A stretch of 64,000 bases of DNA from Armatimonadia bacterium (GTDB taxonomy: Bacteria; Armatimonadota; Zipacnadia; UBA1398), in NCBI GenBank assembly GCA_014730065.1, contig WJIW01000254.1, positions 553 to 64,552 of the forward strand, read 5' to 3'. Below the pieces are notes generated by a model, which worked only from the letters and a program-made list of their open reading frames with translations, ran no database searches and was not told the DNA's origin. This document shows, piece by piece, positions 18,320-60,650 of this stretch (position 1 is its first letter; each line of letters begins with the position of its first letter). Made by a program: the position numbers and the translations under genes.

Positions 18320-19702
18320 CTACGTCGGCCGCTCCCGGACGGGAAACTCGGCCGAATCCACCCGCGCCTCGGAGAACAGCTTCTCGGCCCGGTCGACGGC
18401 ACTGGGGAGCTCGCTCGAGACATCGTGCTCCTCGCCGAGGTCGCGATCCAGCCGGTAGATCTCTATGGGCGCCTCTCGGTTCCGCCGCCTGACCGCCTTG
18501 ATATCGCCCATCCGCACCGCCTGGTGGAAGCCACCCTCGTGGAACTCCCAGTACAGGTAGTCGTGGTGGGGGGCGGTTCCGCCGGTGAGGGCGCCCGCCA
18601 TGGAGAGCCCATCGATGCCCGACGGCCCCGACGTGCCCGCCAGCTCGGCGGCCGTTGGCAGGAAGTCCCAGAAGGCCCAGGGATGGTCGCTGACCACGCC
18701 GGCGGGCCCTCCCTGGGGCCAGCGCACGATCATGGGAACCCGGATGCCTCCCTCGTGTAGGTCACGCTTGATGCCCCGCAGCGGCCCGTTGCTGTCGAAA
18801 AAGTCGGGATCGGCCCCGCCCTCGCGGTGGGGGCCATTGTCGCTGGTGAAGAGGATCACCGTCTCGTCATCGATGCCGAGGGCCTCCAGGCGCCGCAGAA
18901 GCCGGCCCACGTCCCGGTCCAGCCGATCGATCATCGCGGCATGGCCCTTCTGGGGGTTGGGCCAGTCTCGGTCGGCGTACCGGCCGTAGGCCGGGACCTC
19001 CATGCCGTCGCCCGTCTCACGGCCCAGCTCGTTGTTCGCGTGAGGCACGGTATAGGCCATATAGAGAAAGAACGGGTCCCGTGCGTGGCGGGTCACGAAG
19101 TCCAGGCCTCGCTCGGTGAACAGATCATGGGTGTACGTCTCACGCCGTCCGCCCCGATTGCCGGGGAGCGGGTAGCGCTCTTGGTTCTCCCACACATAGT
19201 CGGGGTAGTAGTTGTGGGCCCGGCCCTGATGCAGGTATCCGAACCACTCGTCGAATCCCTGGAGGTTGGGCACGCCGGAGCTGCCCTCTCGGCCCAGACC
19301 CCACTTGCCGAAGATGCCCGTCCGGTACCCGGCGTCGCGAAGCACCTCGGCCACGGTCACGTCCTCGGGCTCCAGGGGCACGCCGCCATTGCCGCGCACC
19401 CGGGCATGACCCATGTGCAGACCGGTCATCAGCCCACAGCGCGATGGGGCGCAGACGGTGCTGGCCGCGTAGCAGTCGGTGAACCGGATGCCCTCGTGGG
19501 CCAACCGATCGATGTTGGGTGTGGTGAGGATCTCCTGGCCGTAGCAGCCCAGGTCTCCGTATCCCAGGTCGTCGGCCATGATATAGATGATATTGGGCGC
19601 CCTGCCATCGCCGCCCACGCGGCCCTGCGCCCAGGCGCCCGGTACCGCGGCGATCGACGCCGCCAAGCCGGCCATACCCTTCAATGCCTGCCGCCGGTCC
19701 AC
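18320..19702 (-). CDS. Arylsulfatase (Cys-type sulfatase family), Tat/Sec-exported
   Basis: 460 aa. Signal MDRRQALKGMAGLAASIAAVPGAWAQ. Sulfatase signature IMADDLGYGDLGCYG and FGly motif CAPSRCGLMTG (C-x-P-S-R). Confidence 0.85.
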   Translation of the reverse strand: MDRRQALKGMAGLAASIAAVPGAWAQGRVGGDGRAPNIIYIMADDLGYGDLGCYGQEILTTPNIDRLAHEGIRFTDCYAASTVCAPSRCGLMTGLHMGHARVRGNGGVPLEPEDVTVAEVLRDAGYRTGIFGKWGLGREGSSGVPNLQGFDEWFGYLHQGRAHNYYPDYVWENQERYPLPGNRGGRRETYTHDLFTERGLDFVTRHARDPFFLYMAYTVPHANNELGRETGDGMEVPAYGRYADRDWPNPQKGHAAMIDRLDRDVGRLLRRLEALGIDDETVILFTSDNGPHREGGADPDFFDSNGPLRGIKRDLHEGGIRVPMIVRWPQGGPAGVVSDHPWAFWDFLPTAAELAGTSGPSGIDGLSMAGALTGGTAPHHDYLYWEFHEGGFHQAVRMGDIKAVRRRNREAPIEIYRLDRDLGEEHDVSSELPSAVDRAEKLFSEARVDSAEFPVRERPT

Positions 19703-19747
19703 TCGACCACTCCTCCCGGTCCGAGGTGGAGCAGCGCCGCCTCGGCC

Positions 19748-31628: not shown

Positions 31629-33176
31629 TCAGAACCAGGTCTGGAAGGAGAGCGATGCCGCCGTCGAGGGCCGGTCGGCCCGGTGGTGGGTCAGGCCGAG
31701 ACGGAGCGAGGTGTTCCGCCCAAGCTGCTTGCTCACCGACAGCCCCCAGATCGTCTGACGGCGCGTGTTGGGCACACTGAGCCCGCGCTCGGACCAGTCG
31801 ACGTAGGCCTTGGCGAGCCAGTCGGAGTGGGGAATGTACCGGATCTCTCCGTAGATGCCCCGGGCGTCGGGCCCCAGGCGGTGCTGCATGGGCAGCCCGT
31901 TACTGAAGAAGTCCAAGCTCGCACCTCGGCTCGTGATCCCCAGTCGCGGACTGGCCCAGGCATACTCGATCCGCGCCGCCAAACGTCCCTCGCCATCCAG
32001 GTCGGGCGCGTACAGCCCCAGGAGGACGCCGTTCTCGTTCACTCCCTCACCGGGCTCGCTTCTGAAGGCTCCGGTCCAGCCGAGTAGCCACTGCAAAGGC
32101 CGGTAGAGCCCCACGGTATCCAGCACCCGTGCCAAGTCGGTCTCGTCGAGCGCCGCGTCAACGTAAAGGTGCAGGTCCTCCGAGGGCGTCCAGTACAGCT
32201 CAGCGTGGTTCATCAGGTTGTCGTCCTCGCGAACGGTGGGATCCTGGAATAGGCTGTCCCGCAGTAGGGTGGCCCACAGTCCGAGAGGGCTGATGAAGTA
32301 CACCGGAGAGGTGATGGATCTAGTGCGTGCGGTGTCCGATAGGCTGAACTCCAGCTCGGGCGAGAGCCGCTTCTCCAGCCGCTTTGTTAGGACCCATAGT
32401 CGCTCGCCCTGGTTACGGTGAGTGTACCAGCCCACATCCAGAATGGCCTTGGTGCCCCAGAGCTGGATCTTGTCGCGGTACCGGATGTGGTCGACGGATC
32501 CCGCCAGCGCGCCGGTGTTATACGTCCCCCGCGCACCCACACCCAGGCGGTAGATGCCCCGGCCCACCGTCAGCTTCTGGGCTGGCTTGTCCGACAGCAC
32601 CAGGAGCCGATGGAGGCCACGCCGGCCGATGCGGTCTTGGCTCCGGTCGGGTGGCCGGTGGCGCCACTCCACTAGGCCCAGGGAGTGGGGCTTCTGGCTG
32701 AACCGGGCCGCGCCGGCGTCCCACAGAAGCTCGGCGCCGGCCGCGGACCCACGCCGAGAGACGTAGCCCAAGGCAGCGGCGCCGTATGGCGCATAGTCGG
32801 TCTCGCCGGAGGAGCTTAGCCAGGAGAGAGCTTCCTCGCGCGAGCGGCCCTCGGACTCCAGCTCCCAGGAGAACTCCCGCACCAGGGCCCCCAGCCACCG
32901 GGCAATGTGATCATCCGTCTCCTCCCGATCTCGAGCGGCCAAGCAGGCTCGCCATACCGCGTCGGCGAGCTCGGCTCGGTTGAAAGTCACGTCACCCATG
33001 TACCGCAGAGGCGTGAGGCCTGGAACGTCGAGATCGGTGAGTACCGACCGGAGGGCCGAGTAGCTCCAGTGGTCCGGGGGCAGCGCAGTGTGGGTGAGCT
33101 GCGGATGCTCGTCGGCGACGGCGCCAGCGCAGAGCAGGCACACAACCGCCAAAGCAGCCAGCCAAAGGCGAATCAA
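31629..33176 (-). CDS. Putative outer-membrane beta-barrel protein (Wzi/alginate-export-like; ends in aromatic residue)
   Basis: Track ORF 31629..33488 trimmed to TTG at 33176 (LIRLWLAALAVVCLLCAGAVA signal; GGAGG 9 nt upstream), overlapping the TGA of the upstream lipoprotein gene (TTGA). Alternating beta-strand pattern; C-terminal …SLSFQTWF typical of OM barrels. Family assignment weak. Confidence 0.4.
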   Translation of the reverse strand: MIRLWLAALAVVCLLCAGAVADEHPQLTHTALPPDHWSYSALRSVLTDLDVPGLTPLRYMGDVTFNRAELADAVWRACLAARDREETDDHIARWLGALVREFSWELESEGRSREEALSWLSSSGETDYAPYGAAALGYVSRRGSAAGAELLWDAGAARFSQKPHSLGLVEWRHRPPDRSQDRIGRRGLHRLLVLSDKPAQKLTVGRGIYRLGVGARGTYNTGALAGSVDHIRYRDKIQLWGTKAILDVGWYTHRNQGERLWVLTKRLEKRLSPELEFSLSDTARTRSITSPVYFISPLGLWATLLRDSLFQDPTVREDDNLMNHAELYWTPSEDLHLYVDAALDETDLARVLDTVGLYRPLQWLLGWTGAFRSEPGEGVNENGVLLGLYAPDLDGEGRLAARIEYAWASPRLGITSRGASLDFFSNGLPMQHRLGPDARGIYGEIRYIPHSDWLAKAYVDWSERGLSVPNTRRQTIWGLSVSKQLGRNTSLRLGLTHHRADRPSTAASLSFQTWF

Positions 33177-33796
33177 AGCCCGGGGCCTCCGTACAGCGAG
33201 AGTCCTGGGCGGACCCGGGATCGCACCTCCACCCTGGAGACGGTCAGAGGCTCCGCGGAGTTCGGGTCCGCGGGGGTCCAGATGAAGTCCAGCTCGAACT
33301 CCGTTGTCTTCTCCCCGATGACCGGCGATCCCACCGCCGCATCCCTCAGGGCCCTGTCCAGCACCTGGACGTTCCCTGCCCCACCTTCCGCCGCGCCGTC
33401 GGAGCTGGTCACCGCCGCCAGGCTCCGGGCCTGCGCCACCTCCAGCATCAGGGCCGAGCCGCGTCGCGGCGTACGTATCTCCAGGCACCCCGCAACCGGA
33501 ACTTCACCGCCAAGGTGGAGGCGCGACTGCTCGTACAGGAGGAACCCGGTGAGAGGCGAGCCATCGGAGGCTTGATGCCCTGCCAGGTCCCACGATACCT
33601 TGGTTCGCGGGGGATCGTAATCGTCCGGCCGGTGCTCGGGGGAAAGGGTGGGTGGCACTACGACATCGGCGGCCGATAGCGAAACACCGGCCCCACTCAG
33701 CTCGGCCGACGGCGTGCAGCCGAGCAGCGACGCGGCAGCCCAGGCCGCCGAGACCATGGCCATCACCAAGGCGAAGGTGACACGCTTCGCTGTCAT
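33173..33796 (-). CDS. Hypothetical lipoprotein (208 aa)
   Basis: Track ORF trimmed to MTAKRVTFALVMAMVSAAWAAASLLGCTPS (lipobox LLGC). No family recognised. Confidence 0.45.
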   Translation of the reverse strand: MTAKRVTFALVMAMVSAAWAAASLLGCTPSAELSGAGVSLSAADVVVPPTLSPEHRPDDYDPPRTKVSWDLAGHQASDGSPLTGFLLYEQSRLHLGGEVPVAGCLEIRTPRRGSALMLEVAQARSLAAVTSSDGAAEGGAGNVQVLDRALRDAAVGSPVIGEKTTEFELDFIWTPADPNSAEPLTVSRVEVRSRVRPGLSLYGGPGL

Positions 33797-48235: not shown

Positions 48236-50623
48236 ATGATCAGCCCACGCTCGATACTGCTCGTCGCCGCGGCCAGTGCGTTAGCCTGCACCGGCCACGC
48301 CCAGGATGAAGGAGATCCGGCCATGACGCCGCCCATGCAAGTCAGTGGACGCTACCCACACCTGGCGGTGACCAACTCCAGCAGCGAATGCGGCATCGGC
48401 GCCGTGGCCGAGTGGGCCGGGCGCCTGTGGCTCGTCACGTACCCGCCCCACGAGCCCTCGGGGAGCGATGACAAGCTCTACTGGATCGACGGCGACCTGG
48501 TGCGCCACACCCATCCGGCATCCATCGGCGGAACCCACGCCTCCAGAATGGTCCATCGAGAGTCAGAGCAGCTCATCATGGGACCGTACTTCATCGATGC
48601 CGGCGGCGGTGTGCGCGTCTTCGCCCTCGCCGACTTCCCCGCCCGCCTGACCGCTGCCATGCGCCACCTCGAGGACCCCGTCGGAAGGGTGTACCTCCTC
48701 GGCATGGAGGAGGAGTTGTACGAAGTCGATGTGCGGACCCTGGCCGTGCGAGAGCTGTACGGTCTCGACGGAATACCCGTTTCGGGCACCCATGCCAAGG
48801 GGGGCTACAAGGCGCAGGACCGGCTGGTGTTTAGCAACAATGGCGACCGCCGATGGGCCGAGGACGGCGACTCCGGCGCCCTCGCCCAAGGCGATGGAGT
48901 CCACTGGGAGGTCGTCCACCGCGCGCCCTTCACGGAAGTCACCTCACGTGAGGGCATCGGTCCGACGGACTCGGCTGTGCCCCTGTGGTGCCTGGGGTGG
49001 GACCATCGCTCGGTCATCCTGCGGATCCTGGATGGCGGCCAGTGGCACGTGCTACGACTTCCCAAGGGGAGCTACACCCACGACGCGCTCCATGGCTGGT
49101 ACACCGAATGGCCGCGTATCCGCGAAGTAAGAGGAGGGACGTACCTCGCGCACATGCATGGCCTGTTCTGGGACTTTCCACCTACGATGAGCGCCTCGGA
49201 CCGTTCTGGCCTCCGGCCCATCTCCACCTACCTCAAGATGCCTGTGGACTACTGCGACTGGAACGGCCGGCTGGTTATGGGCTGCAATGACGCCTCGACC
49301 TTCGAGAACCCCTTCGTGAACCAGCCCAGCTCCAACCTATGGCTCGGGTCTCTGGAGGATCTGGCTCAGCTCGGCGGCCCTGCGGGCTACGGAGGCCCGT
49401 GGGTGAGTGATGCGGTTCGAGCCGGCCAGGCCTCGGACCCCTTTTTGGTCGGTGGGTTCGCCCACGTCACGCTGCACCTCTCGGCGGAGCCCGAGGCCAC
49501 CTTCGACGTGGAAGTGGACCAGAGCGGACGCGGCGATTGGCGCGCCATCGAATCGGTCAAGACCGGCCCCGGAGGGTACGCCTACCGGGTATGGACCGAG
49601 CCACGGGGCGGCGACTGGATCCGTCTGGTGCCCCATGGGAGCGACACGGAGGTCACCGCGTATCTCCACCTGACGACTCCGTACAGGGAGCAGAGAGCCC
49701 ACGGCTCGCGCCGGGTGCCCCTGAGCTTCGACGGCCTCGCCGATATAGACAGCCAGGCCCCCTGGTCGGGCGGCATCATCCGGCCTCGGGGCGGTGATCT
49801 GGGAACCCTCCACGGCTTGCTCCATCCGGCCAATGAGGGACAAGCCACGTACGTGGAGATGACGGCCGACTTGGGCCTGCATGCCGCTGACGATCCCGAA
49901 GCCGCCGCTTGGCTGGAGACCAGCCACGGCCTCGGCGGACCGGACTTCTCACTGGACCCGGCCTCGGTGGTGATGACGGGCGACGGCGGCGGGACGTACC
50001 GGCTCCCTCGCACCGCCCCCCAGTACGACCGAGCCTTCGAGCTAGGCTGGCCCCGAGGCATCCGGGAGGTCGTCACCGAGCGCTCGCTGATGAACATCCA
50101 TGGGACCTTCTATGAGCTGCCCCGGCCCTCGTCGGGGGGGCTGGAGCGGATTCGGCCCATCTCCACCCACGGTAAGAGGATCGTCGACTTCTGCTCCTGG
50201 CGGGGCCTGCTCGTGATGTCCGGGGTGCGGGAGTCGGCCGCGGCCGATGGGCACGTCTTCAGGGGACCGGATGGTCTGGCCCTCTGGCTCGGGGACGTGG
50301 ATGACATATGGGCCATGGGCAAGCCAGTGGGTTACGGCGGGCCGTGGCTGGACACACCCGTGGCCGCCGGCCAGGCTTCGGACCCGTACCTTATGGCCGG
50401 TTACGATCACAAGACGCTGACCCTGTCCCACGACGCCGCTGCCGCGGTGACCATGACTGTACAGGTCACGGCCGGCTTCGACGTGTGGCACGACTACGCT
50501 ACGGTATTGGTCCCGCCAGGCGTGGAGAAGTCCCATTCCTTCGCCACCGGCTTCTCGGCCCACTGGATGCGGGTCGTGGCCGATACCGACTGCCGGGCTA
50601 CGGCGCAGCTTCTGTACCGGTAA
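48236..50623 (+). CDS. Secreted 795-aa hypothetical protein with internal tandem duplication of a ~170-aa module
   Basis: Signal peptide MISPRSILLVAAASALACTGHAQ (GGAGG RBS). Two homologous modules: …YLAHMHGLFWDFPP…LRPISTYLKMPVDYCDWNGRLVMG…GYGGPWVSDAVRAGQASDPFLVGGFAHVTLHLSAEP… and …LMNIHGTFYELPRP…IRPISTHGKRIVDFCSWRGLLVMSG…GYGGPWLDTPVAAGQASDPYLMAGYDHKTLTLSHDA… No family recognised. Confidence 0.55.
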   Translation: MISPRSILLVAAASALACTGHAQDEGDPAMTPPMQVSGRYPHLAVTNSSSECGIGAVAEWAGRLWLVTYPPHEPSGSDDKLYWIDGDLVRHTHPASIGGTHASRMVHRESEQLIMGPYFIDAGGGVRVFALADFPARLTAAMRHLEDPVGRVYLLGMEEELYEVDVRTLAVRELYGLDGIPVSGTHAKGGYKAQDRLVFSNNGDRRWAEDGDSGALAQGDGVHWEVVHRAPFTEVTSREGIGPTDSAVPLWCLGWDHRSVILRILDGGQWHVLRLPKGSYTHDALHGWYTEWPRIREVRGGTYLAHMHGLFWDFPPTMSASDRSGLRPISTYLKMPVDYCDWNGRLVMGCNDASTFENPFVNQPSSNLWLGSLEDLAQLGGPAGYGGPWVSDAVRAGQASDPFLVGGFAHVTLHLSAEPEATFDVEVDQSGRGDWRAIESVKTGPGGYAYRVWTEPRGGDWIRLVPHGSDTEVTAYLHLTTPYREQRAHGSRRVPLSFDGLADIDSQAPWSGGIIRPRGGDLGTLHGLLHPANEGQATYVEMTADLGLHAADDPEAAAWLETSHGLGGPDFSLDPASVVMTGDGGGTYRLPRTAPQYDRAFELGWPRGIREVVTERSLMNIHGTFYELPRPSSGGLERIRPISTHGKRIVDFCSWRGLLVMSGVRESAAADGHVFRGPDGLALWLGDVDDIWAMGKPVGYGGPWLDTPVAAGQASDPYLMAGYDHKTLTLSHDAAAAVTMTVQVTAGFDVWHDYATVLVPPGVEKSHSFATGFSAHWMRVVADTDCRATAQLLYR

Positions 50624-51894: not shown

Positions 51895-53109
51895 TTGGAC
51901 TTCCAGATCAAGCCTAGCGCCGTGTACGTCCTCACCGCCTGCCTGGCGGCCGTCACCCTCATCCTCACCACCCACTTCGGCCTGCTACAAGAGGACCCGC
52001 TCTCCAACCCCGCCGGCGACGGTACCGTCTGGGCCGGGCCCAGCACCGATCACGGACCCCTCGACACCTCCGAGCGCCTGCTCCTCTGGCACTCCGAAGC
52101 CACCAGCCCCGTCTCCGGCCCACTCATCGCCTACGCCGGACGATCGGCCACGAGCTCATCGGACATCCTCGTCGTCCCCGCCGCCGGAGGAATGGCCCGC
52201 AATCTCACCCGTCACCCCGCCCGAGACACCCTTCCCACCTGGTCGCCCGACGGGTCGCAGATCGCCTTCATCCGGTACGATGACCACCACCACTACGTGT
52301 GCGTGGCTGGCGTCCAAGGCGGCCCACGTCCCCGGGCCCTCTCCGGCCCACTCAAGGGCGCATGCGAGGTGGCGTGGCATCCGTCGGGTAACCGGCTGGC
52401 CTACAGGGGCACCGATCCCGAAGGCCCGTCGAAGATCCGTCTCGTCTCCCTCGATGGCGTCACAACGACTATAGGTGATGGGGCCTTCCGCGACCAGGAG
52501 CCCCAGTGGTCGCCCTCGGGCGACGCCCTCGCCTTCGTACGCTTCGACGGCAGTCAGTCCCGCATCATGCTTGCCGGCCCGAGCGGGGAGGAAGCCACCC
52601 CGCTCCTCTCAGACCCCGGCCATTACCAGGGCCTGGCCTGGAGCCCCGATGGCCGGTCCCTGGCGGCCGTTCACGTGGTCCAAGGGCAGCCCCACCGCAT
52701 CGTCGTCCTGCAGCCCGATACCGCCCAGGGCAAGGTCTTCGATGTGGACCAATCCCTTCGACCCCGGCTCAAGTGGACTCCCGACAGCCGGAAGCTCGTG
52801 GCCGCCGCGGAGGGGAAGCTGGACTGGGACGTAGTGCTCGTTGACGCGCGGACCGGTCGGGTTGAGCCGGTGACCGAGGGCATGGCCCAGCGGTGGAGTG
52901 CCGAGACGGCGCGGGGCCACACGGATCTCCGCCGCACGGCCATCGAGTACGAGGCCGAGATGGGCCCCAGCGGAGATGAGCTGCTCTTCCTCAGCGACCT
53001 CAGTGGCCCGCCCGTCGGTCTGTTCGTGATGACCCTGGACGGCCGTGGAATCAAGCAGCTCGCGAGTGACGTGACGGCCGCCACATGGCAGCCCGTGCCT
53101 ACCCCGTGA
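51895..53109 (+). CDS. TolB-like / PD40 WD40-like beta-propeller repeat protein (N-terminal TM anchor)
   Basis: 404 aa (track start is TTG; start uncertain). N-terminal hydrophobic segment AVYVLTACLAAVTLILTT; repeated PD40 units (…PTWSPDGSQIAFIRYD…, …PQWSPSGDALAFVRFD…, …LAWSPDGRSLAAV…, …LKWTPDSRKLVAAA…). Confidence 0.7.
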   Translation: MDFQIKPSAVYVLTACLAAVTLILTTHFGLLQEDPLSNPAGDGTVWAGPSTDHGPLDTSERLLLWHSEATSPVSGPLIAYAGRSATSSSDILVVPAAGGMARNLTRHPARDTLPTWSPDGSQIAFIRYDDHHHYVCVAGVQGGPRPRALSGPLKGACEVAWHPSGNRLAYRGTDPEGPSKIRLVSLDGVTTTIGDGAFRDQEPQWSPSGDALAFVRFDGSQSRIMLAGPSGEEATPLLSDPGHYQGLAWSPDGRSLAAVHVVQGQPHRIVVLQPDTAQGKVFDVDQSLRPRLKWTPDSRKLVAAAEGKLDWDVVLVDARTGRVEPVTEGMAQRWSAETARGHTDLRRTAIEYEAEMGPSGDELLFLSDLSGPPVGLFVMTLDGRGIKQLASDVTAATWQPVPTP

Positions 53110-54610
53110 GCACCACGGGCACCACCATGACCTCGGCGTGCCCCGCCCGGGTGATCTCCACGGCGGCCCGGATCGGCCCCTCGAGGGGCTCCTCGGTGGA
53201 CAGGTGGAACGCCACGGAGCCCTCGCAGGGGAAGGGCGCCTGCTTCACGTGGACCGAGGCGAAGGGCGCCGGATCGATCTCGATCCCCTCGGGCAGGTAC
53301 CACTTAATGCGCAGCGTGGCCGGGATCTTGTAGCGGTTGGTCAGCTTGAGCGTGACGGACCGGGCTTGCCCCGGCTTGAGCGATGGGTCGCCGCCGTAGT
53401 CCACCACTACGTCGAAGAAGGCGAAGCGGTGGCGGGTGCCGCCCAGCGCCGAGTACGGCGCTTGTCGCCGGTCGTGCCCAGCCAGGCGTGGCAAGCCGGC
53501 CAAGTCGGTGGGCGCGTCGGACAGAGCGATGCCGCGTCGGATTCGGCCGAGGACCTGGCGTGCCATGGCTTCGGTTCGGGCCGTCAGGTCATCCACATTC
53601 TGGGGAAGCTGATTGCCGAGGAAGCCCAGCTCACCCAAGTTCAGGCATGCCGTCTTGATGGTGCGGCCGATGGGCTCGATCCACTCCTCGGGTATCGCCT
53701 CGGCGCCATGGATGATCCCCCAGATGGCGCCCACCGTCGCCGCCGTACAGTCCGTATCCTCGCCGCAGTTCACGGTGGTGCAGAGCGTGCTGGCGAAGTC
53801 GCCCTCGCCGTAGAGAAGCCCGAGAACGACCAGAGCCACGTTCGACGGCGCGTCCCAACCCAGCTCGCCCTCGTGGAATCCCTTGGCGCGGTCCTCCTCA
53901 CTGGTGCACCATTCGTACCCCATGTGAGTGCTGCCTCGGAACTCGCCCAGCAGGCGGTCCCGGGCATCGCGCCAAGGCATGCCCGAATCGTACGAGTCGA
54001 TCACCTGGCGCACGGCCCTCGCGATCCCGCAGTCGCCGGGTATGTAGGAGAGCCCGATGTCGATCAGCTCCCGCAGGTCGCCCTGCACGAAGGCAGCGCT
54101 CTCCAGGGCCGCGCAGAACACCTCGCCGAAGAGCCCCTCGCCGTCGCCGTGATCGAGAATGCCGTCCTCGTACGCGTACCTCGCCGCCACGTCGGGGCAT
54201 CCGGGGGCGACACAGCCCCAGATCTCCGACCGGATGAAGCATCCGCAGCTATGCTTGTAGGGGTTGTTCAGGCTGCCGGACAGGGGTGGCATCAGTCCGG
54301 TCTGGAGGTTGATCTTGGCGTTGCCGTACTCGCACCAGTGGGGCGTCACGTAGAGCAGCCAGTACTCGGCCAGGGCATGGGCGTCGAGATCGGGGCCCAT
54401 CTCCTCGAGGGCCACCAGCCACAGAAGCTGGATGTCCAGGTCGTCGTTGGGCAGGGGCTCGCCGCCCAGGTCCTGGGTATAGAAGGACACGTCGTTAATC
54501 TGCCGGCGCCACTCGAAGGGCGCCCCCAGGGTACCCCCGATGTTCTTACCAAGCCAGCATCCCAGCACCTTAGTGCGGTACTCCGGGGCATTGAGGTTCA
54601 TCTGCGTCAC
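53099..54610 (-). CDS. ADP-ribosylglycohydrolase family protein with ~150-aa C-terminal beta-rich extension
   Basis: 503 aa. N-terminal ARH signature KVLGCWLGKNIGGTLGAPFE; Asp/Thr-rich metal-binding region (…CGEDTDCTAATVGAIWG…). 15-nt gap to the upstream fusion-cytochrome gene. Confidence 0.75.
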   Translation of the reverse strand: MTQMNLNAPEYRTKVLGCWLGKNIGGTLGAPFEWRRQINDVSFYTQDLGGEPLPNDDLDIQLLWLVALEEMGPDLDAHALAEYWLLYVTPHWCEYGNAKINLQTGLMPPLSGSLNNPYKHSCGCFIRSEIWGCVAPGCPDVAARYAYEDGILDHGDGEGLFGEVFCAALESAAFVQGDLRELIDIGLSYIPGDCGIARAVRQVIDSYDSGMPWRDARDRLLGEFRGSTHMGYEWCTSEEDRAKGFHEGELGWDAPSNVALVVLGLLYGEGDFASTLCTTVNCGEDTDCTAATVGAIWGIIHGAEAIPEEWIEPIGRTIKTACLNLGELGFLGNQLPQNVDDLTARTEAMARQVLGRIRRGIALSDAPTDLAGLPRLAGHDRRQAPYSALGGTRHRFAFFDVVVDYGGDPSLKPGQARSVTLKLTNRYKIPATLRIKWYLPEGIEIDPAPFASVHVKQAPFPCEGSVAFHLSTEEPLEGPIRAAVEITRAGHAEVMVVPVVLTG

Positions 54611-54625
54611 TCCGTCAGATCGAGA

Positions 54626-57600
54626 CTAGTGGACCACCTTGGGCCAGTATCGCTCTTCGTCGAAGTGGGGGCTCTTGCCCTCCGTGTGGCACGTGAGGCA
54701 GGTTGCGGCGGTGAGGGGCTCTAGGATCTCGTGGCCCTGGGCGGTAGCGGGACCGACTCGGTGGCAGGCCACGCACGAGACATCGGGCAGCCGGGCGGCC
54801 TCGGGCTCCAAGGGTGCCGCCGAGTGGCAGTCCCAGCAGTCGGGATCGAACTCCCGGTCCAGGTCTCGGAGCGTCTGGGCGGCCGAGGCGTGGGGGGTCG
54901 CCTGCCACTGCTCAAGCTGCTCGGCGTGGCACGCGCCACACGCCTGGGGCTGGGCGGACTCATCCACTCCCGCCGCCAGAATACGCTCCCGCTGCTCGGC
55001 CTGCACTTCGTCCTGGTAGTCGGCGATGAGTGCCGATACTTGGGGGCTCTCCAGGATCTGGTCATCCATCGGGATGAGCTGGGGCTCAGCCGATACGGGC
55101 CGAAGGTCCTCATCGAGCCGCAAGGTCAGCCGGCCGACCCACTCGCCGTTCTGGCCGGCGGAGACGATCCAGGTGTCATCCGCTCGCTCGGGCACCTGAA
55201 GCGACCGTCCCTCGTGGCCACACACGATCACGTCCACGTCCTCGACGGCCTCGGCGAGAGCTCGGGCATCCTCGACGTAGCCGTGGTAGAGCACCACGAC
55301 CAAGGAGGTGGACGGCGCCACCGAGGCGACTTCGGCTCGGACGCGCTCGAGGGGATCGGCCAGGGCCACGCCCTCGGGAGCCTCGCCATCACCGAAGGCG
55401 AAGGCTCGGGGGGAGGTGACCGACACCACGCCCACGCTCACGCCGCGCCGGTCGATGATCTGCGCCGAAGGCTCCACGCCGTCCACGGCGGCATTGGCCG
55501 AGACGTAGGGCATTGGCGAGCCCTGCATCAGCGCGGACAGCACATCAGCGCCATAGGTCAGGTCCTGATCGCCAATGGCGATGGCGTCGTAGTCCATGAC
55601 CTCGAAGGCCTTCTGGATGTACTCGAACTTGGTCCAGTCCTGGGTGGCCCCGAGCACGTCGCCGCTGTCGACCACGATGGAGGCGGGGTACATGTCCCGG
55701 AGCTCTGCTATGGCCCCGGCCTGACGGGTAAGGCCGCCGTAGGGGTTGCCGGGGCAGCGGCATGCTTCGAGCTGCCCGTTGGTGCTCCCCGTGTAGACGA
55801 TGGTGAGGGACGTGGGCGCCAGCCCGATGCGGTCTGCTATCGTGAGGGCTGTGTCGGCGCCGGCGATGTCGGCCACCTCGCGGTTCTCGTAGAGCAGCAG
55901 GCAGTCACCGTACACGCCCATCTGGGCCTGGGACTGGGCATCCCGGTAGAGGGCGTCCAAGATCCCGCCCGGTGCCGTCGCCTCGGCGCGGATGGCCTGG
56001 GGATCGAGGCCCGCCCGCTCCAGCGGCGCGTCCCAATAGCTGCTGTTCCCGGCGGCCAGCCGGGCCTCCAAGTACGCCGCCATGGCGTCGGGATGATCCC
56101 GCCACACAACGGCCTGGCGCGCCGCTTCCTCGATCTCCGCCACGCCCCCCTGGGCGGCCAGGTCACCCGACTCACTGAGGCTCAGGGCGGGGTGGAGCTC
56201 GACCTCGTACGCGGCCCGGTCGCCCGCTCGCTCCAGGAGAGAGAGCACGGTGGTCACCGCCTCCAGGGCCGGCGGATACTGGCAGCGGTAGTAGAGATCG
56301 ATACGACCCGGCTCGCGCTCGCGACCCACCATCAGGCCCGACGAGGTATGCTCGGGGAGGACCATGTAGTACTCCCCGGTCCGCGTCAGAGCCTGGGAGA
56401 TCTGCTCCAGGTTCGGGCGCTGCTCAAGCTGATCGGCGGGCAGGAAGAAGGCGGGGAGCCATCCCACCTCCGCCATCTCCGACAGCCGGCGCCCCTCCTC
56501 GCTATCGTAGGCCACCTCCCGTGGCTCGAGCCCCGGCATCAAAGCGGCGAGATCGCTCACCAAGGGCCGGTGACTCGTCAAGGCGGCCTCCTCGGAGCCG
56601 ACCACGATCAGCTCCAGGGGCGTGGGATCCTCGTACTCGCAGCGAGCGTCGCCCGTTCCGGCATCCCGGCAATAGCCGATCTGACCCGGCTCGAGGCAGT
56701 CGCCGTGATCGGTGCACTCGGGCACTCCCGCGCAGCGCTCCCCGCGAAGCTGGTCGGGGAGAGTCCAGCAGAACGTCCGGAGCAGGGCGGGGGCGAAGTT
56801 GTCGTCCTCGTACTCGATGTTGTTCAGGTAAAGGGTGGGCGTGCCGGGGATCATGAAGCGGCGAGCCCGGTTGGCGTGGGCTAGGAGCATCCGAGTGACT
56901 TGCTCGGAAGTCGCGTGCTCCCCGACGACCTCGGGGTCGATACCCTGGGCCTCCATGACGGCCGTGGCTTCGGCCCCCGGTTGCACGGCGCGCAGGGCAG
57001 CGTACCGGGTCACGGCCTCCCGCCCATAGAGGACCTGGATGGCGATCTCGCGGCGGGCCTCGGCGACGGCTTCGGGCCCGAAGGTCGACACGAACTGACC
57101 GGTCTCATTGTCGTAGTGAACCACATGCCATCGGCGGACCTGGACGCGATCCTCGCCGAAGAGACCCAGGGCCTCACGTAGCTGGGGCTCCAGCTCCAGG
57201 CAGTAGCCACAGCCCCAGGCGGTGTACGAATCGAGCACCAGCCGCGGCCCCTCGAGGGTGTCCTTGCGCTCCAGCCACTGGGCGACACGCTCCGCCTGCC
57301 CGGGGTCGTCGGGCACGCTGGGGTCCAGGGGAATCTCGCGCAGGCGGTACTCAGCGATCTCGGCTTCATCCACCCGGAGATCGAGGCGAGACAGGGCCCG
57401 GCCCTCCAGGCTGAACTCACCGATGATGGCCTCGCCGACCTTGTCCACAAGGCCGCCCGGACGGCGGTAGTGAGCATTGAGGAAGATGTCCACATCGGGC
57501 ACCGACTCGGCCAGGAGGCGGGTGCGGTCACTGCCCAGGTGAGAGAGGACCACCATCAGGTCGACTTGGCCCCGGATCTCGTCCACCACCGAGTGGACGC

Positions 57601-58195
57601 CTTCGATGGGGTCGCCCACCTGGGCCCACATGGCCTGGCGCGGATCGCCCAGGGCGTAGAGGTCCAGTGGTGTGGCGGCGGTGATCCCCACGGTGACGCC
57701 CCCGACCTCGGTGATGAGGTACCGCTCCACGCCCGCCTCACGGGCGGGCTCCTGGCCCATGTTCGCCGAGAGGAAGGGCGCGCCACCCAGCTCGGCGGCT
57801 CGGGCCAGGAACTCGGGCCCCCACTGTAGCTCCTCATCGCCCACGGCGTAGGCGGCGTAGCCCATGTCCGCACAGGCCCGGAGGTGGACCTCGGTGCGTG
57901 CCTGGTCGACTACGGGTCCCTCGGTGTACTCGTCGTACGCCGACCCGCCGAACTGACCCCCCGCATCCAGGAGCAGTGTGGGCGTGAGTCCGCCCCGGCG
58001 CACCTGCTCGATCATGTGGGCCCGGCGGGCGATGCCCCCGTCCTTGCTCACGACGCAGTCGCAGGGGGTGACCATGGCGTGGGTCTCGCCGGTGTACGCG
58101 ATAGTGATGTCTTTGACGTCGGCGCCGACGGGCAGAGCTGGCAGCAAGGCGAAGAGGCAGAGCGCCCGGGCGACCCGGGCGCCGGGAATGGTCAT
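54626..58195 (-). CDS. Periplasmic multidomain fusion: 2x degenerate 5'-nucleotidase/metallophosphoesterase-like domains + DsbA-like thioredoxin (CGYC) + C-terminal tetraheme c-type cytochrome (4x CxxCH)
   Basis: Track ORF 54626..58315 trimmed to MTIPGARVARALCLFALLPALPVGADV (signal; ATG 58195). Domain 1 (DITIAYTGETHAMVTPCDCVV…LLLDAGGQFGGS…VVLSHLGSDRTRLLAESVPDVDIFLNAH) and domain 3 (LTIVYTGSTNGQLEACRCPGNPYGG…VVVLYHGYVEDARALAEAVEDVDVIVCGHEG) follow the 5'-NT layout, but the D-x-H / GNHE metal ligands are replaced by Cys-containing motifs. Middle region has WGCGYC … IPGTPT (DsbA-like). Last ~110 aa: CGACH, CWDCH, CVACH, CLTCH. Confidence 0.6.
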   Translation of the reverse strand: MTIPGARVARALCLFALLPALPVGADVKDITIAYTGETHAMVTPCDCVVSKDGGIARRAHMIEQVRRGGLTPTLLLDAGGQFGGSAYDEYTEGPVVDQARTEVHLRACADMGYAAYAVGDEELQWGPEFLARAAELGGAPFLSANMGQEPAREAGVERYLITEVGGVTVGITAATPLDLYALGDPRQAMWAQVGDPIEGVHSVVDEIRGQVDLMVVLSHLGSDRTRLLAESVPDVDIFLNAHYRRPGGLVDKVGEAIIGEFSLEGRALSRLDLRVDEAEIAEYRLREIPLDPSVPDDPGQAERVAQWLERKDTLEGPRLVLDSYTAWGCGYCLELEPQLREALGLFGEDRVQVRRWHVVHYDNETGQFVSTFGPEAVAEARREIAIQVLYGREAVTRYAALRAVQPGAEATAVMEAQGIDPEVVGEHATSEQVTRMLLAHANRARRFMIPGTPTLYLNNIEYEDDNFAPALLRTFCWTLPDQLRGERCAGVPECTDHGDCLEPGQIGYCRDAGTGDARCEYEDPTPLELIVVGSEEAALTSHRPLVSDLAALMPGLEPREVAYDSEEGRRLSEMAEVGWLPAFFLPADQLEQRPNLEQISQALTRTGEYYMVLPEHTSSGLMVGREREPGRIDLYYRCQYPPALEAVTTVLSLLERAGDRAAYEVELHPALSLSESGDLAAQGGVAEIEEAARQAVVWRDHPDAMAAYLEARLAAGNSSYWDAPLERAGLDPQAIRAEATAPGGILDALYRDAQSQAQMGVYGDCLLLYENREVADIAGADTALTIADRIGLAPTSLTIVYTGSTNGQLEACRCPGNPYGGLTRQAGAIAELRDMYPASIVVDSGDVLGATQDWTKFEYIQKAFEVMDYDAIAIGDQDLTYGADVLSALMQGSPMPYVSANAAVDGVEPSAQIIDRRGVSVGVVSVTSPRAFAFGDGEAPEGVALADPLERVRAEVASVAPSTSLVVVLYHGYVEDARALAEAVEDVDVIVCGHEGRSLQVPERADDTWIVSAGQNGEWVGRLTLRLDEDLRPVSAEPQLIPMDDQILESPQVSALIADYQDEVQAEQRERILAAGVDESAQPQACGACHAEQLEQWQATPHASAAQTLRDLDREFDPDCWDCHSAAPLEPEAARLPDVSCVACHRVGPATAQGHEILEPLTAATCLTCHTEGKSPHFDEERYWPKVVH

Positions 58196-58226
58196 CGTGT
58201 GGGTCCTTCGCTCCCCCGATGCGGGG

Positions 58227-59564
58227 TTATTGGGGATCCGCGCAGCAGCGGAATCCGACGTAGTCTCCCTTAAGGACGGGGTGCTTCGGTCCTCCCGTGC
58301 TACAGTCGAATCCATCGAGCCGCTGGTCGCGGAAGGACGCGCCGCGGATGTCCACGGTGGTGTCCTCGGAGCCCCAGCCGCTCCCGATGTACTCGCTTAC
58401 ATTACCGATCATGTCATAGAGCCCGTACCCGCTGACGCAGTAAGGGCGGGACCCGATGCGCTCGGGGTGGGCGTCCTCCCCCATCATGACGCCGATGTTG
58501 CAGGCGCCCCGCACGGGACGGTCGCCGTACGGGAAGCGGTGCCCGTCGGGCCCTTCGCAGCCGGCCTCCCACTCGTCGGGCTCACAGAGGCGCTTCCCCT
58601 TGCCCCCGCACCAGCCCGCGGCGCCGAACTGGTTGATGTCGGTTACGGGCTTGGCACCCACGATGTTGGGCGCCTCGTAGATGTCGATGCATACCCGGTC
58701 CTCGACCAGGCGCATGCCCGCGGGACACTTGGGCTCCGGGGGCACGCTCTTCATGAAAAGAGTGTCATCGGCCTGGCCACCCATTAGGGTAGGGGTCTGG
58801 GCGCCGCCCTCGGCCCCCTGGAAGGCCTGCTGAGCCGTCGCCGTGGTGAAGGCCACCAGCTCCTTGATGGAGACGTTCGAGTCGGCGGGCTCAGTGTCGG
58901 CCATGCCCGTGATGGCGTTGGTCAGGCAGAACCCCAGCAGGGGACGCTCCAGGGACTCGTCGTTGAGCTCCTGGCCCGGCGAGACGGCCGAAAGCAGGAG
59001 GCAGCTCGCGGCCAGAGGCTCGAGGACGTTCCCGGGGATGGCCAAATCCTCGGGAGTGCCCTCGGGCTTGAAGGCGCTCCAGGGCGAAGTGTCGAGGATC
59101 AGCAGCTTCTTGCCGGCGGGAATGGCCGCCATGTACTCGGCGAGCTGCTCCACCGTCAGCGCCGTACTGGGCAGGTCATCCAGGTCGGCGTTGTAGGGGC
59201 AGACGTAGATGGTGGGAGCGCCCTCTTCGCTCGCCTGGGCGACCATGGTCAGGCAGAGGTAGACGAAGACCTCGTCGGTCTCGGCAGCGGTCTGACAGAA
59301 CTCCAGGGCGCCTACCAGGTTCGCCCGGCTCGCCTGCCCGCCCGAGAGGGCGCCCACATGCTCCATGGGCACGGCGCCGATGTCGGGGTTGGCGAACCGC
59401 TCGGCGGCGATGAAGGCATAGGTCTCCCCCTCGACGCGGCCGGGGATGTCGAAGTCCTCGTACTCGTTCACGCCCGCACATACGGCGAAGCGCTGGGCTT
59501 CCTGGGCCCACACCCCCGTCGCAAGCAACCCGAGTAAGATGGACCCTAGCCACACACGTTTCAT
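58227..59564 (-). CDS. Secreted caspase-like (catalytic-dyad-substituted) domain + formylglycine-generating-enzyme (FGE/SUMF1) domain protein
   Basis: 445 aa, signal MKRVWLGSILLGLLATGVWAQ. N-terminal FAVCAGVNEYEDF…LLILDTSPWS resembles the peptidase C14 fold, but the His (YLCLTM) and Cys (ILDTSP) positions are substituted. C-terminal FGE-sulfatase domain (…YGLYDMIGNVSEYIGSGW…RGASF…CCADPQ). Confidence 0.6.
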   Translation of the reverse strand: MKRVWLGSILLGLLATGVWAQEAQRFAVCAGVNEYEDFDIPGRVEGETYAFIAAERFANPDIGAVPMEHVGALSGGQASRANLVGALEFCQTAAETDEVFVYLCLTMVAQASEEGAPTIYVCPYNADLDDLPSTALTVEQLAEYMAAIPAGKKLLILDTSPWSAFKPEGTPEDLAIPGNVLEPLAASCLLLSAVSPGQELNDESLERPLLGFCLTNAITGMADTEPADSNVSIKELVAFTTATAQQAFQGAEGGAQTPTLMGGQADDTLFMKSVPPEPKCPAGMRLVEDRVCIDIYEAPNIVGAKPVTDINQFGAAGWCGGKGKRLCEPDEWEAGCEGPDGHRFPYGDRPVRGACNIGVMMGEDAHPERIGSRPYCVSGYGLYDMIGNVSEYIGSGWGSEDTTVDIRGASFRDQRLDGFDCSTGGPKHPVLKGDYVGFRCCADPQ

Positions 59565-59618
59565 CTGCCGTCACCTTCCCGTTGGCGGCGGCCTGAAGAT
59601 GGCGCGCCACTCGGTCGT

Positions 59619-60650
59619 ATGGATACACTAGAGACAGGGGCGATTCGTTTGGCACGAGCAGGCCGGTCCAAGCCGTGGGTGCGCATCGGCTCTCTCGTCG
59701 GGCTGCTCATCGTCGCTCCCTTCCTGCTCTACGCCGCGGTGCGTCTGTACGGCGCCTACATGGATCAGAAGGCCGCCGGAAACCGTGAGATCTGCCTCGA
59801 CAACCTAAGGGTCATCGGAACCTTGCTCCGATCGTACGCCCTGGATCACGATGACCGCCTGCCTCCCGCCGACCGCTGGGAGGACGTACTCCTTGAAGAC
59901 ACGGGAGACCCCCGAGTGTTCCAGTGCCCCTCGGCTCCCAAGGGCACCCGGTCCGGCTATGCCTACTTCGCCGACCTCTCGAGCGGCTCCCTCGCCAACC
60001 TGATCTCCCCCGCCGACGTGCCCATGGTGTACGACTCACCCAAGGGCACGTGGAACGCACGGGACAGCTACCCGGAGCTGCCCAGCCCGCCTCGCCACGG
60101 CGGACGCAATCATGCCCTCATGGCCGACGGCTCGGTGCAGCGCCTCGCACCTTTCGACGTCTGGGTCGGCGCCCGGTTCCAGGATGACGGCGAGGGCGGG
60201 CCGGGCGAAGTGAAGACACTGCCGGGCCATACGGGCCCCAGCGTGCTGTTCCAAGCCCAGACGCCCATCGCCTTCCGGACCGAGCACGGCATCGAGTGGA
60301 CGGCTCGGGAGCTGCCGGACGGGTACCTGTTCGTGGGCCCCGCGGAGTCGGAGATCCTGACCCGGATTCGCTGGCCGGGCGAGGGAGAGGGGCTCCCTCC
60401 CCTACCGCCGACGGCTACTATCGAGGACCGGTACCCGATCGCCATGGCTCCCGACCCGGGCCAGTACTCGGTCATAGGTGAGGCGATGGAGTATGTGGAT
60501 GGCGACGTCCGGGTGCTTCGGATCGAGCTGCCCATGGATCCGGCCATGGTGGCCACGGTGCGGGTGCCCACGGCCGCTGGGGAGGAGCAGCTCGGCGAGG
60601 CCTGCCTTCCCCTCACGGCTCTCAGGCGGGTCGAGACATCGGGCCCATAG
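59619..60650 (+). CDS. DUF1559-like H-X9-DG protein with N-terminal TM anchor instead of prepilin motif
   Basis: 343 aa. TM segment WVRIGSLVGLLIVAPFLLYAAV; then the region conserved with the DUF1559 genes at 37480-39417 (NREICLDNLRVIGTLLRSYALDHDDRLPP vs AKQTSCLSNQRQIATALLSYAQDYDERLP) and H-X9-DG motif HGGRNHALMADGS. Confidence 0.6.
   Translation: MDTLETGAIRLARAGRSKPWVRIGSLVGLLIVAPFLLYAAVRLYGAYMDQKAAGNREICLDNLRVIGTLLRSYALDHDDRLPPADRWEDVLLEDTGDPRVFQCPSAPKGTRSGYAYFADLSSGSLANLISPADVPMVYDSPKGTWNARDSYPELPSPPRHGGRNHALMADGSVQRLAPFDVWVGARFQDDGEGGPGEVKTLPGHTGPSVLFQAQTPIAFRTEHGIEWTARELPDGYLFVGPAESEILTRIRWPGEGEGLPPLPPTATIEDRYPIAMAPDPGQYSVIGEAMEYVDGDVRVLRIELPMDPAMVATVRVPTAAGEEQLGEACLPLTALRRVETSGP

What the first reader, a model, noticed from the sequence alone, without database searches (positions are those of the whole stretch)
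58227..59564. Caspase-like domain lacking the His/Cys dyad fused to an FGE (SUMF1-type) domain; a Cys-type sulfatase is encoded 40 kb away
The N-terminal domain starts with the caspase-type GVNEY motif, but the catalytic His and Cys positions read YLCLTM and ILDTSPWS, which suggests a non-catalytic scaffold. The C-terminal FGE-sulfatase domain is the fold that oxidises Cys to formylglycine in sulfatases. The window also encodes a sulfatase carrying the target motif CAPSR (18320..19702). The FGE domain here may therefore mature that sulfatase or act on another substrate within the operon described above.
Basis: partly seen in the sequence, partly recalled or inferred. Interest (0 to 1): 0.55.

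Follow-up and report, generated by a model that had tools for sequence, protein, structure and literature searches.

The report
Dead caspase fused to dead FGE-like domain
This gene encodes an exported protein built from a caspase-like domain and a formylglycine-enzyme-like domain that have both lost their catalytic residues, so it cannot activate the distant sulfatase and is more likely a binding partner of the large redox protein encoded right after it.

Summary
Window 58227..59564 (minus strand) encodes a 445-aa protein with a signal peptide, a caspase-fold domain and an FGE-fold domain. A Cys-type sulfatase (CAPSR) lies at 18320..19702.

The proposed function is not supported.
- The caspase His/Cys dyad is replaced by invariant Thr106/Ser160, and the near-universal upstream Asp (presumed S1-pocket residue) by Tyr49.
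- The FGE-like domain is a compact 170-aa, Cys-rich version. The two copper-binding catalytic cysteines of real FGEs (human C336/C341) align to Asp413/Leu416. Only the structural disulfide cysteines are kept.
- Its nearest sequence and structure relatives are non-FGE members of the fold: SUMF2/pFGE, TvpA, PorK, PvdO, EgtB.
- No sulfatase lies near the orthologues.

The conserved feature, in all six orthologue lineages (labelled WS1 or Armatimonadetes), is the gene immediately downstream. It encodes a ~1190-aa exported protein with two UshA-like domains carrying CxC motifs, a DsbA-like domain and four haem sites.

The best reading is a non-enzymatic recognition or scaffold partner of that protein. 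The caspase plus FGE-like architecture and pseudo-orthocaspases are already published, so this is a new variant of a known kind and of modest interest.

The parts
58227..59564 (-). Whole ORF, 445 aa: signal peptide + pseudo-caspase domain + compact FGE-like domain
   Evidence: Eight full-length orthologues at 46-98% identity.
59505..59564 (-). Predicted Sec-type signal peptide (residues 1-20, MKRVWLGSILLGLLATGVWA|QE)
   Evidence: Read directly from the sequence. A hydrophobic N-terminus is conserved in all orthologues. pLDDT is below 50 for residues 1-20. No signal-peptide predictor was available.
58749..59495 (-). Caspase-fold (orthocaspase p20-like) domain, residues about 24-272, catalytically dead
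   Evidence: AF2 pLDDT 74-98 over residues 21-200. Foldseek hits to GSU0716, MALT1 and metacaspases. Profile hits are 58/60 Peptidase_C14.
59247..59249 (-). Thr106 at the position of the catalytic His (FVYLCLT versus consensus IYFAGHG)
   Evidence: Invariant in the family.
59085..59087 (-). Ser160 at the position of the catalytic Cys (LDTSPW versus consensus LDxCYS)
   Evidence: Invariant in the family.
59418..59420 (-). Tyr49 at the position of the near-universal Asp (58/60 homologues), which I take from memory to be the S1-pocket Asp
58230..58739 (-). Compact (170 aa) Cys-rich FGE-fold / C-type-lectin-like domain, residues 276-445, with 10 invariant Cys
58317..58328 (-). Asp413...Leu416, the positions of the two catalytic, copper-binding cysteines of true FGE (human C336, C341); neither is Cys
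   Evidence: alignments to 2aii wild type, 2aft C336S and 2afy C341S
54626..58195 (-). Conserved downstream partner gene, 1189 aa. It starts at Met41 of the listed 1229-aa ORF, 31 nt after the target's stop. Contents: signal peptide, UshA-like domain with a CDC motif, DsbA-like CGYC, Cys-rich linker, second UshA-like domain with a CRC motif, four CxxCH haem sites
   Evidence: Adjacent to the target in every orthologous locus.
59619..60650 (+). Divergently transcribed 343-aa protein with an H-X9-DG-like motif (pseudopilin-like), conserved at this position in 5 of 6 orthologue lineages
   Evidence: No Pfam hit. Motif HGGRNHALMADG read from the sequence.
18320..19702 (-). Cys-type sulfatase (CAPSR) with a Tat-like signal. 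Examined and judged not functionally linked to the target.

Best explanation
The gene encodes a Sec-exported, disulfide-rich, non-enzymatic two-domain protein.

The N-terminal half is a pseudo-orthocaspase. It keeps the caspase fold, but the catalytic His/Cys are replaced by invariant Thr106/Ser160, and the near-universal Asp (presumed S1-pocket residue) by Tyr49.

The C-terminal half is a compact FGE-fold (C-type-lectin-like) domain. It keeps the structural disulfide cysteines but has Asp413/Leu416 where true FGEs have the two copper-binding catalytic cysteines. It therefore cannot make formylglycine and does not mature the sulfatase 38 kb away.

Most likely it acts as a recognition or scaffold subunit that works with the product of the next, probably co-transcribed, gene. 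That product is a ~1190-aa exported protein with two UshA-like domains bearing CxC motifs, a DsbA-like domain and a tetrahaem domain. The FGE-like domain would supply a ligand- or peptide-binding face, as in pFGE/SUMF2, PorK/GldK, PvdO and DGR variable proteins. The remodelled caspase cleft would supply a protein-protein interface.

Shown: the folds, the loss of catalytic residues, and the conserved gene pairing. Inferred: export, binding function, and physical interaction with the partner.
For: - Fold of the N-domain: pLDDT 74-98; caspase, paracaspase and metacaspase hits.
- Homology to Peptidase_C14: (58/60).
- Dyad and presumed S1-pocket Asp replaced: 57/60 homologues have H...C, while this family has T...S and Tyr at the Asp column. 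The replacements are invariant among nine family members.
- Catalytic Cys absent: (C336 aligns to D413, C341 to L416, C346 to C421, C218 to C319, C235 to C336, C365 to C440).
- Best PDB sequence match is the inactive paralogue SUMF2.
- Gene pairing: the target is followed by the partner in the window and in every orthologous locus, at about 98, 74, 57, 54, 50 and 48% identity. Other flanking genes differ between loci.
- The gap between the two genes is 31 nt, with a Shine-Dalgarno-like sequence before the partner's start.
- Literature: the caspase plus FGE-sulfatase architecture is recurrent (PMC3501461). Pseudo-orthocaspases are an established class (PMC6426788). The FGE-type ('FGS') lectin-fold domain is read as a non-enzymatic binder (PMC7159879).
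Against: - No direct evidence of binding or of a complex with the partner. Gene adjacency in one narrow lineage could be inherited synteny.
- A more distant paralogue with the same architecture (P0044, Arg/Ala at the dyad) is not next to a partner homologue.
- The residues that replace the caspase active site are themselves invariant (R43, Y49, C104, T106, S160, W162, R207-C213). This could mark a new catalytic or cofactor site rather than a binding surface.
- Signal peptide and disulfides are inferred from the sequence.
Confidence: 0.55

Rival explanations
1. One reading: the FGE domain is an active formylglycine-generating enzyme that matures the Cys-type sulfatase at 18320..19702, or another substrate in its operon.
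For: - Pfam FGE-sulfatase hit above threshold.
- A sulfatase with a perfect CAPSRxxxLTG motif is in the same window.
- No other FGE-like ORF and no radical-SAM maturase was seen in the window, so the sulfatase's maturase is unaccounted for here.
Against: - Both catalytic cysteines are absent: D413 and L416.
- The closest relatives are non-FGE members of the fold.
- No sulfatase lies in the orthologous loci.
- The partner has no C/S-x-P-x-R motif.
- Sec-exported candidate versus Tat-type sulfatase signal (sequence reading plus inference).
- The sulfatase is 38.5 kb away, separated by unrelated genes.
Confidence: 0.03
2. Cryptic enzyme. The remodelled, invariant pocket of the caspase domain (Cys104/Thr106/Ser160/Trp162/Tyr49), or the FGE-like domain acting like PvdO, EgtB or ToxD-type relatives, carries out a different reaction. 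One example would be modification or redox handling of the CxC cysteines of the partner.
For: - The replacement residues are invariant across 46-98% identity.
- The pairing with a Cys/haem-rich redox protein is strict.
- DsbD/CcdA-FGE-like fusions exist among weaker homologues (P0029, P0033, P0036, P0040).
Against: - There is no general base at the His position.
- From my own recollection, the metal site of EgtB/OvoA is contributed by a separate DinB-like domain, and no such domain is present here; only FGE-sulfatase is found by Pfam.
- There are no invariant His or Cys pairs left in the FGE-like domain beyond those aligned to structural disulfides.
Confidence: 0.15
3. A free-standing periplasmic or surface lectin-like binder (glycan or cell-envelope ligand) whose adjacency to the UshA-like cytochrome gene is only inherited synteny.
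For: - The compact FGE-like module occurs in more than 3500 proteins, mostly small stand-alone secreted proteins, and as triple tandem repeats.
- Paralogue P0044 lacks the partner.
- The fold is a C-type-lectin relative.
Against: Pairing is 6 of 6 lineages down to 48% identity while all other downstream genes vary. In the species-level genome collection, both genomes that carry the partner also carry the target immediately upstream.
Confidence: 0.2
4. A component of an anti-phage or conflict system (caspase plus FGS sensor as in the Kaur et al. systems), or a DGR-diversified variable protein.
For: Caspase and FGS domains are recurrent in such systems (PMC7159879). TvpA and Mtd are close structural matches.
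Against: - No PADLOC hit for the target or its neighbours.
- No NTPase, vWA, MoxR or reverse transcriptase among the genes scanned.
- No template repeat for the 3' end in the window.
- The C-terminus is the best-conserved part of the protein: 0.73-0.80 column identity.
- The protein appears to be exported rather than cytoplasmic.
Confidence: 0.03

Closest known systems
Bacterial orthocaspase (Peptidase_C14) + FGE-sulfatase fusion proteins (Asplund-Samuelsson et al. 2012, PMC3501461)
   Same: Same N-to-C architecture. It was the fifth most common partner domain of prokaryotic caspase homologues (33 sequences), including a dyad-negative example. 12 of the 60 nearest N-domain relatives also carry PF03781. 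In the fusions whose FGE-like C-terminal motif I inspected, the FGE Cys pair is also missing.
   Different: Here the caspase dyad is also lost (Thr/Ser). The FGE-like domain is the compact 170-aa, 10-Cys subtype rather than the ~255-aa Pfam-type domain. The protein has a Sec-type signal, and the gene is strictly paired with a UshA-like cytochrome gene.
Pseudo-orthocaspases (Klemencic et al. 2019, PMC6426788)
   Same: p20-type caspase fold with the His/Cys dyad substituted and Ser at the Cys position. Presumed to be proteolytically inactive.
   Different: Published variants are mainly Tyr-Ser or Tyr-Asn, occur in Cyanobacteria and Alphaproteobacteria, and keep the acidic specificity pocket. This family has Thr-Ser, has Tyr49 in place of the near-universal Asp that I take to be a pocket residue, is fused to an FGE-like domain, and comes from genomes labelled WS1 or Armatimonadetes.
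SUMF2 / pFGE (PDB 1y4j), the inactive paralogue of human FGE
   Different: SUMF2 is a eukaryotic ER protein of about 280 aa and stands alone. Here the domain is shortened to 170 aa, has extra cysteines, and is fused to a pseudo-caspase.
True formylglycine-generating enzymes (human SUMF1, S. coelicolor, M. tuberculosis and T. curvata FGE)
   Same: Same fold (Foldseek E 1e-8, TM 0.65-0.68). The structural cysteines aligned to human C218, C235, C346 and C365 are conserved.
   Different: The catalytic C336/C341 equivalents are Asp413/Leu416. About 85 residues of loops are missing. There is no conserved sulfatase neighbour.
Non-FGE users of the fold: PorK/GldK, PvdO, EgtB/OvoA C-domain, and DGR variable proteins TvpA, Mtd, TaqVP
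   Different: No lipoprotein or T9SS context, no DinB domain, and no DGR.

Membership tests
Formylglycine-generating enzyme (FGE/SUMF1, functional sense) | FGE fold (PF03781-type C-type-lectin-like domain) | tested here: met
Formylglycine-generating enzyme (FGE/SUMF1, functional sense) | Two catalytic, Cu(I)-binding cysteines (human C336 and C341, CX4C after the GGS motif) | tested here: not met
   Profile alignment to wild-type, C336S and C341S human FGE chains puts Asp413 and Leu416 at these positions. This holds in all eight orthologues in the C-domain alignment.
Formylglycine-generating enzyme (FGE/SUMF1, functional sense) | Association with a C/S-x-P-x-R sulfatase substrate | tested here: not met
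   The only sulfatase is 38.5 kb away. None is found in the orthologous loci. The partner has no C/SxPxR motif.
Formylglycine-generating enzyme (FGE/SUMF1, functional sense) | O2- and copper-dependent conversion of Cys to formylglycine | not testable with these tools
   Needs biochemistry.
Caspase-like peptidases, family C14 (orthocaspase/metacaspase) | Caspase-haemoglobinase fold and sequence homology to Peptidase_C14 | tested here: met
   Foldseek hits to GSU0716, MALT1 and metacaspases. The family profile hits C14 proteins at E down to 1e-35, and 58/60 carry PF00656. The protein itself does not reach the Pfam or NCBIfam thresholds.
Caspase-like peptidases, family C14 (orthocaspase/metacaspase) | Catalytic His-Cys dyad | tested here: not met
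   Thr106 and Ser160, invariant.
Caspase-like peptidases, family C14 (orthocaspase/metacaspase) | Acidic S1 pocket (conserved Asp after strand 1) | tested here: not met
   Asp in 58/60 homologues, Tyr49 here. That this column is the S1-pocket Asp is my recollection, not a tool result.
Pseudo-orthocaspases (Klemencic 2019) | p20 domain present, no p10 domain, dyad substituted | tested here: met
   This is a new substitution type (Thr-Ser), and the acidic pocket is not retained.
DGR variable proteins (FGE-type CLec fold) | C-terminal variable region with a cognate template repeat and reverse transcriptase | tested here: not met
   No repeat of the 3' 334 nt in the window and a conserved C-terminus. 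No RT among the scanned ORFs. The rest of the genome is not available.
Known anti-phage defence systems (PADLOC) | Match to a PADLOC model | tested here: not met
   No hits for the target or three neighbours.

The most novel reading that the evidence does not exclude
The pseudo-caspase/FGE-like protein is a dedicated subunit or assembly factor of a so far uncharacterised periplasmic enzyme. That enzyme, the ~1190-aa partner, combines two UshA/SoxB-like domains carrying CxC motifs (the Cys form of the CxU 'UshA-like selenoprotein' family), a DsbA-like domain and four haems. The catalytically dead FGE fold would keep the ancestral ability to grip a cysteine-containing segment and present or protect the partner's CxC sites. 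If so, this would give a first functional handle on the UshA-like (seleno)protein family and an example of two pseudo-enzymes recruited together as an adaptor.
Probability: 0.15. Interest if true: 0.6.

Novelty: new variant of a known kind. Interest (0 to 1): 0.3.

Why it matters
Mainly this is a correction. A 'formylglycine-generating enzyme family protein' label, as carried by orthologue P0002, would wrongly suggest sulfatase maturation. The catalytic cysteines are absent, so the window's sulfatase must be matured by something encoded elsewhere.

Beyond that, the case shows a protein made of two pseudo-enzymes, both with invariant replacement residues. It is locked in synteny with a very large Cys- and haem-rich UshA-like protein of unknown function, in a poorly studied lineage labelled WS1 or Armatimonadetes. 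That pairing is a testable lead for the function of the UshA-like (seleno)protein family, but it rests on gene neighbourhood only.

Tried and rejected
- Active FGE: rejected on the Cys-pair alignment.
- Second FGE-like gene or anaerobic sulfatase maturase in the window: an HMM of the C-domain against all six-frame ORFs found only the target. Pfam scans of 38 further ORFs found no FGE and no radical-SAM protein.
- DGR target: no template repeat and a conserved C-terminus.
- Defence system: no PADLOC hits.
- Promoter and terminator scan of 52900-59900: nothing found, so uninformative for operon structure in this high-GC genome.
- First full-length AF2 run with nine sequences gave an unusable C-domain (pLDDT below 50). 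This was solved by a 129-sequence alignment of the compact FGE-like family.
- Wider distribution of the partner: the genome scan found only two species-level genomes with a full-length partner. The five other hits (four alphaproteobacterial MAGs and Ruegeria marisflavi) are weak matches to single UshA-like domains, with no caspase/FGE-like gene within 4 kb.
- The ADP-ribosylglycohydrolase gene 15 nt downstream of the partner looked like part of the operon, but it is absent from all orthologous loci.

Full report
**Observation**

The ORF at 58227..59564 is real. It lies on the minus strand and encodes 445 aa from an ATG preceded by a GGAAGG Shine-Dalgarno-like stretch.

Pfam finds only FGE-sulfatase (PF03781) at residues 302-441, with E 4.9e-13 and profile positions 88-254 of 255. 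NCBIfam gives a weak caspase hit at residues 27-159, with E 1.3e-4 and 21.5 bits against a cutoff of 140.

The sulfatase at 18320..19702 is also on the minus strand. It has Pfam Sulfatase E 1e-56, the motif CAPSRCGLMTG and a Tat-like RRQALK N-terminus.

The window is ordinary chromosomal DNA of about 67% GC. It holds a nuo operon, glycoside hydrolases and regulators.

**N-terminal domain**

Eight full-length orthologues at 46-98% identity were found. One is labelled candidate division WS1, and genome records label related contigs Armatimonadetes or Armatimonadia.

A profile of the N-domain (alignment A2) searched against 1.84 billion representatives gave 5468 hits at E<=0.001 and 585 at E<=1e-10, covering the whole domain. 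Of the best 60 hits:
- 58 carry Pfam Peptidase_C14.
- 57 have His and Cys at the dyad columns.

The AF2 model is confident over residues 21-200 (pLDDT 74-98). It matches the bacterial caspase-like GSU0716, MALT1 paracaspase, metacaspases and caspases (Foldseek E about 1e-7). The domain is therefore a genuine caspase-fold homologue.

In this family the consensus IYFAGHG reads VYLCLTM, so His becomes Thr106. The consensus LDxCYS reads LDTSPW, so Cys becomes Ser160. A near-universal Asp, present in 58 of 60 homologues, is Tyr49 here. I take this Asp to be an S1-pocket residue. That identification is from memory, supported only loosely by the statement in PMC6426788 that two conserved Asp residues line the pocket.

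All three replacements are invariant in the nine family members, as are Arg43, Cys104, Trp162 and the R207-PLLGFC213 segment. This fits the published class of pseudo-orthocaspases (PMC6426788). It differs in having a Thr-Ser pair instead of Tyr-Ser or Tyr-Asn, and in not retaining the conserved Asp.

**C-terminal domain**

Residues 276-445 form a compact module of 170 aa with ten invariant cysteines. A profile of this module retrieves 3538 proteins, mostly small proteins from Sorangium, Polyangiaceae and other Myxococcota-type bacteria. All are annotated generically as FGE family. The module also occurs as triple tandem repeats (P0009-P0013).

With a 129-sequence alignment, AF2 gives pLDDT 93.3. 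Structural matches are as follows.

| Search | Top matches |
|---|---|
| Foldseek | also matches true FGEs (E 1e-8, TM 0.65-0.68) |

The decisive test is the profile alignment to human FGE chains deposited as wild type (2aii), C336S (2aft) and C341S (2afy). Comparing these fixes the catalytic positions unambiguously.

| Human FGE residue | Role | Residue here |
|---|---|---|
| C336 | catalytic, Cu-binding | Asp413 |
| C341 | catalytic, Cu-binding | Leu416 |
| C346 | structural disulfide | Cys421 |
| C218 | structural disulfide | Cys319 |
| C235 | structural disulfide | Cys336 |
| C365 | structural disulfide | Cys440 |

The disulfide pairing C218-C365 and C235-C346 in human FGE is from my own knowledge of the human FGE structure. 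All orthologues read RG(G/A)SF(R/L)(D/N)(Q/G) at this spot.

The best single-sequence PDB hit is already the inactive paralogue SUMF2.

**Context**

The target's stop is followed after 31 nt by the true start of the next gene. This is Met41 of the listed 1229-aa ORF, as shown by the orthologue alignment and a Shine-Dalgarno-like sequence. The 1189-aa product contains:
- a signal peptide;
- a UshA-like domain that passes the NCBIfam equivalog cutoff for 'UshA-like (seleno)protein' NF041198 (319 bits against 275), with CDC where selenoprotein members have CxU (PMC13188914);
- a DsbA-like CGYC motif;
- a Cys-rich linker;
- a second UshA-like domain with CRC;
- four CxxCH haem sites.

Its metallophosphoesterase motifs are partly altered relative to 5'-nucleotidases: GD becomes GG and GNHE becomes GDEE.

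This gene follows the target in every orthologous locus examined. Those loci cover six lineages, at about 98, 74, 57, 54, 50 and 48% identity of the target. They include two species-level genomes and six metagenome loci.

A divergently transcribed 343-aa protein with an H-X9-DG-like motif is conserved upstream in five of the six lineages. Everything else varies. The ADP-ribosylglycohydrolase that follows the partner in the window is absent elsewhere, and so is any sulfatase. The partner contains no C/S-x-P-x-R motif.

A more distant paralogue with the same architecture (P0044, Arg/Ala at the dyad) stands without the partner.

**Mechanism**

Shown:
- Both domains have the expected folds.
- Both lack the residues needed for the family chemistry.
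- The replacements are under strong conservation.
- The gene is locked to the UshA-like cytochrome gene.

Inferred:
- The protein is exported through Sec and is disulfide-bonded. This rests on the N-terminal hydrophobic signal and ten invariant Cys in the C-domain.
- It acts as a non-enzymatic recognition or scaffold partner of the neighbouring periplasmic redox protein.
- The FGE-like domain is the binding module, as argued for FGS domains generally (PMC7159879).
- The pseudo-caspase is an interaction platform.

I put about 0.9 on 'not an FGE, does not mature the sulfatase', and about 0.5 on 'binding partner of the downstream protein'.

Rivals:
- A cryptic new catalytic site, 0.15.
- A stand-alone lectin with only inherited synteny, 0.2.
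- A conflict-system or DGR component, 0.03. There are no PADLOC hits, no RT or template repeat, and the C-terminus is conserved.
- A true FGE, 0.03.

**Comparison and novelty**

Caspase plus FGE-sulfatase fusions were described in 2012: 33 sequences, including a dyad-negative one (PMC3501461). Pseudo-orthocaspases were described in 2019. In the caspase-FGE fusions among the nearest homologues whose C-terminal motif I inspected, the FGE Cys pair is also absent.

The differences here are:
- the double loss of catalytic residues, with new invariant residues in their place;
- the compact Cys-rich FGE-like subtype;
- the strict pairing with an uncharacterised UshA-like(CxC)-DsbA-tetrahaem protein in a narrow, little-studied lineage.

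This makes it a new variant of a known kind, of modest interest. Its main value is to prevent a wrong functional assignment and to give a neighbourhood-based lead on the UshA-like (seleno)protein family.

Noticed in passing
window 54626..58315 (-); true start probably 58195: Giant exported protein of 1189 aa. It has two UshA/5'-nucleotidase-like domains with CDC and CRC motifs (the Cys form of the CxU 'UshA-like selenoprotein' NF041198, which passes its equivalog cutoff). Their metallophosphoesterase motifs are altered (GD to GG, GNHE to GDEE). It also has a DsbA-like CGYC, a six-Cys linker and four CxxCH haems. Function unknown. The listed ORF start overlaps the target's 3' end, but orthologue alignment supports Met41.
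   Followed up: partly
window 59619..60650 (+): 343-aa protein with no Pfam hit but an H-X9-DG-like motif (HGGRNHALMADG) and an N-terminal hydrophobic segment. It is divergently transcribed from the target and is syntenic in 5 of 6 orthologue lineages (34-62% identity).
   Followed up: partly
proteins P0193-P0311 (alignment A5), columns of window residues 409 and 414: The compact Cys-rich FGE-like module forms a large family of 3538 hits, mostly small Myxococcota proteins. About two thirds of the 129 aligned members carry their own CX4C (KGCYWxGC). This motif is shifted four residues N-terminal to the FGE C336/C341 positions. Whether it is a disulfide or a relocated metal or catalytic pair is unknown. 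The window protein lacks it.
   Followed up: partly
proteins P0009-P0013 (about 590 aa): These proteins consist of three tandem copies of the compact FGE-like module behind a signal or lipoprotein-like N-terminus.
   Followed up: no
window 53099..54610 (-): ADP-ribosylglycohydrolase (Pfam E 3.5e-46) with a ~190-aa C-terminal extension that has no family hit. It starts 15 nt after the partner gene and so looks operonic here, but it is absent from all orthologous loci.
   Followed up: partly
window 18320..22144 (-): The Cys-type sulfatase has a Tat-like signal and sits directly downstream of a 798-aa protein that reads, by eye, as a PAS-rich hybrid histidine kinase with a receiver domain (not scanned against Pfam). 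No FGE or radical-SAM maturase is encoded in the window, so its maturase must be elsewhere in the genome.
   Followed up: partly
L015 4609..9344 (GCA_029547025.1, JAKPQA010000031.1): A paralogous 447-aa protein (P0044) has the same signal/pseudo-caspase/compact-FGE-like architecture but Arg/Ala at the dyad positions. It is not next to a UshA-like gene. It lies divergent to a 1048-aa Ala-rich repeat protein with no Pfam hit.
   Followed up: partly
L004 5215..6507: A second, divergent FGE-sulfatase-domain protein (430 aa) lies 3.5 kb upstream of the orthologue in the Armatimonadia MAG contig CAZRDB010000024.1. Whether it retains the catalytic Cys pair was not checked.
   Followed up: no
window 48236..50623 (+), 31629..33488 (-) and 17705..18268 (-): Three sizeable ORFs with coding-type GC3 (795, 619 and 187 aa) have no Pfam family at E<=0.01.
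   Followed up: no
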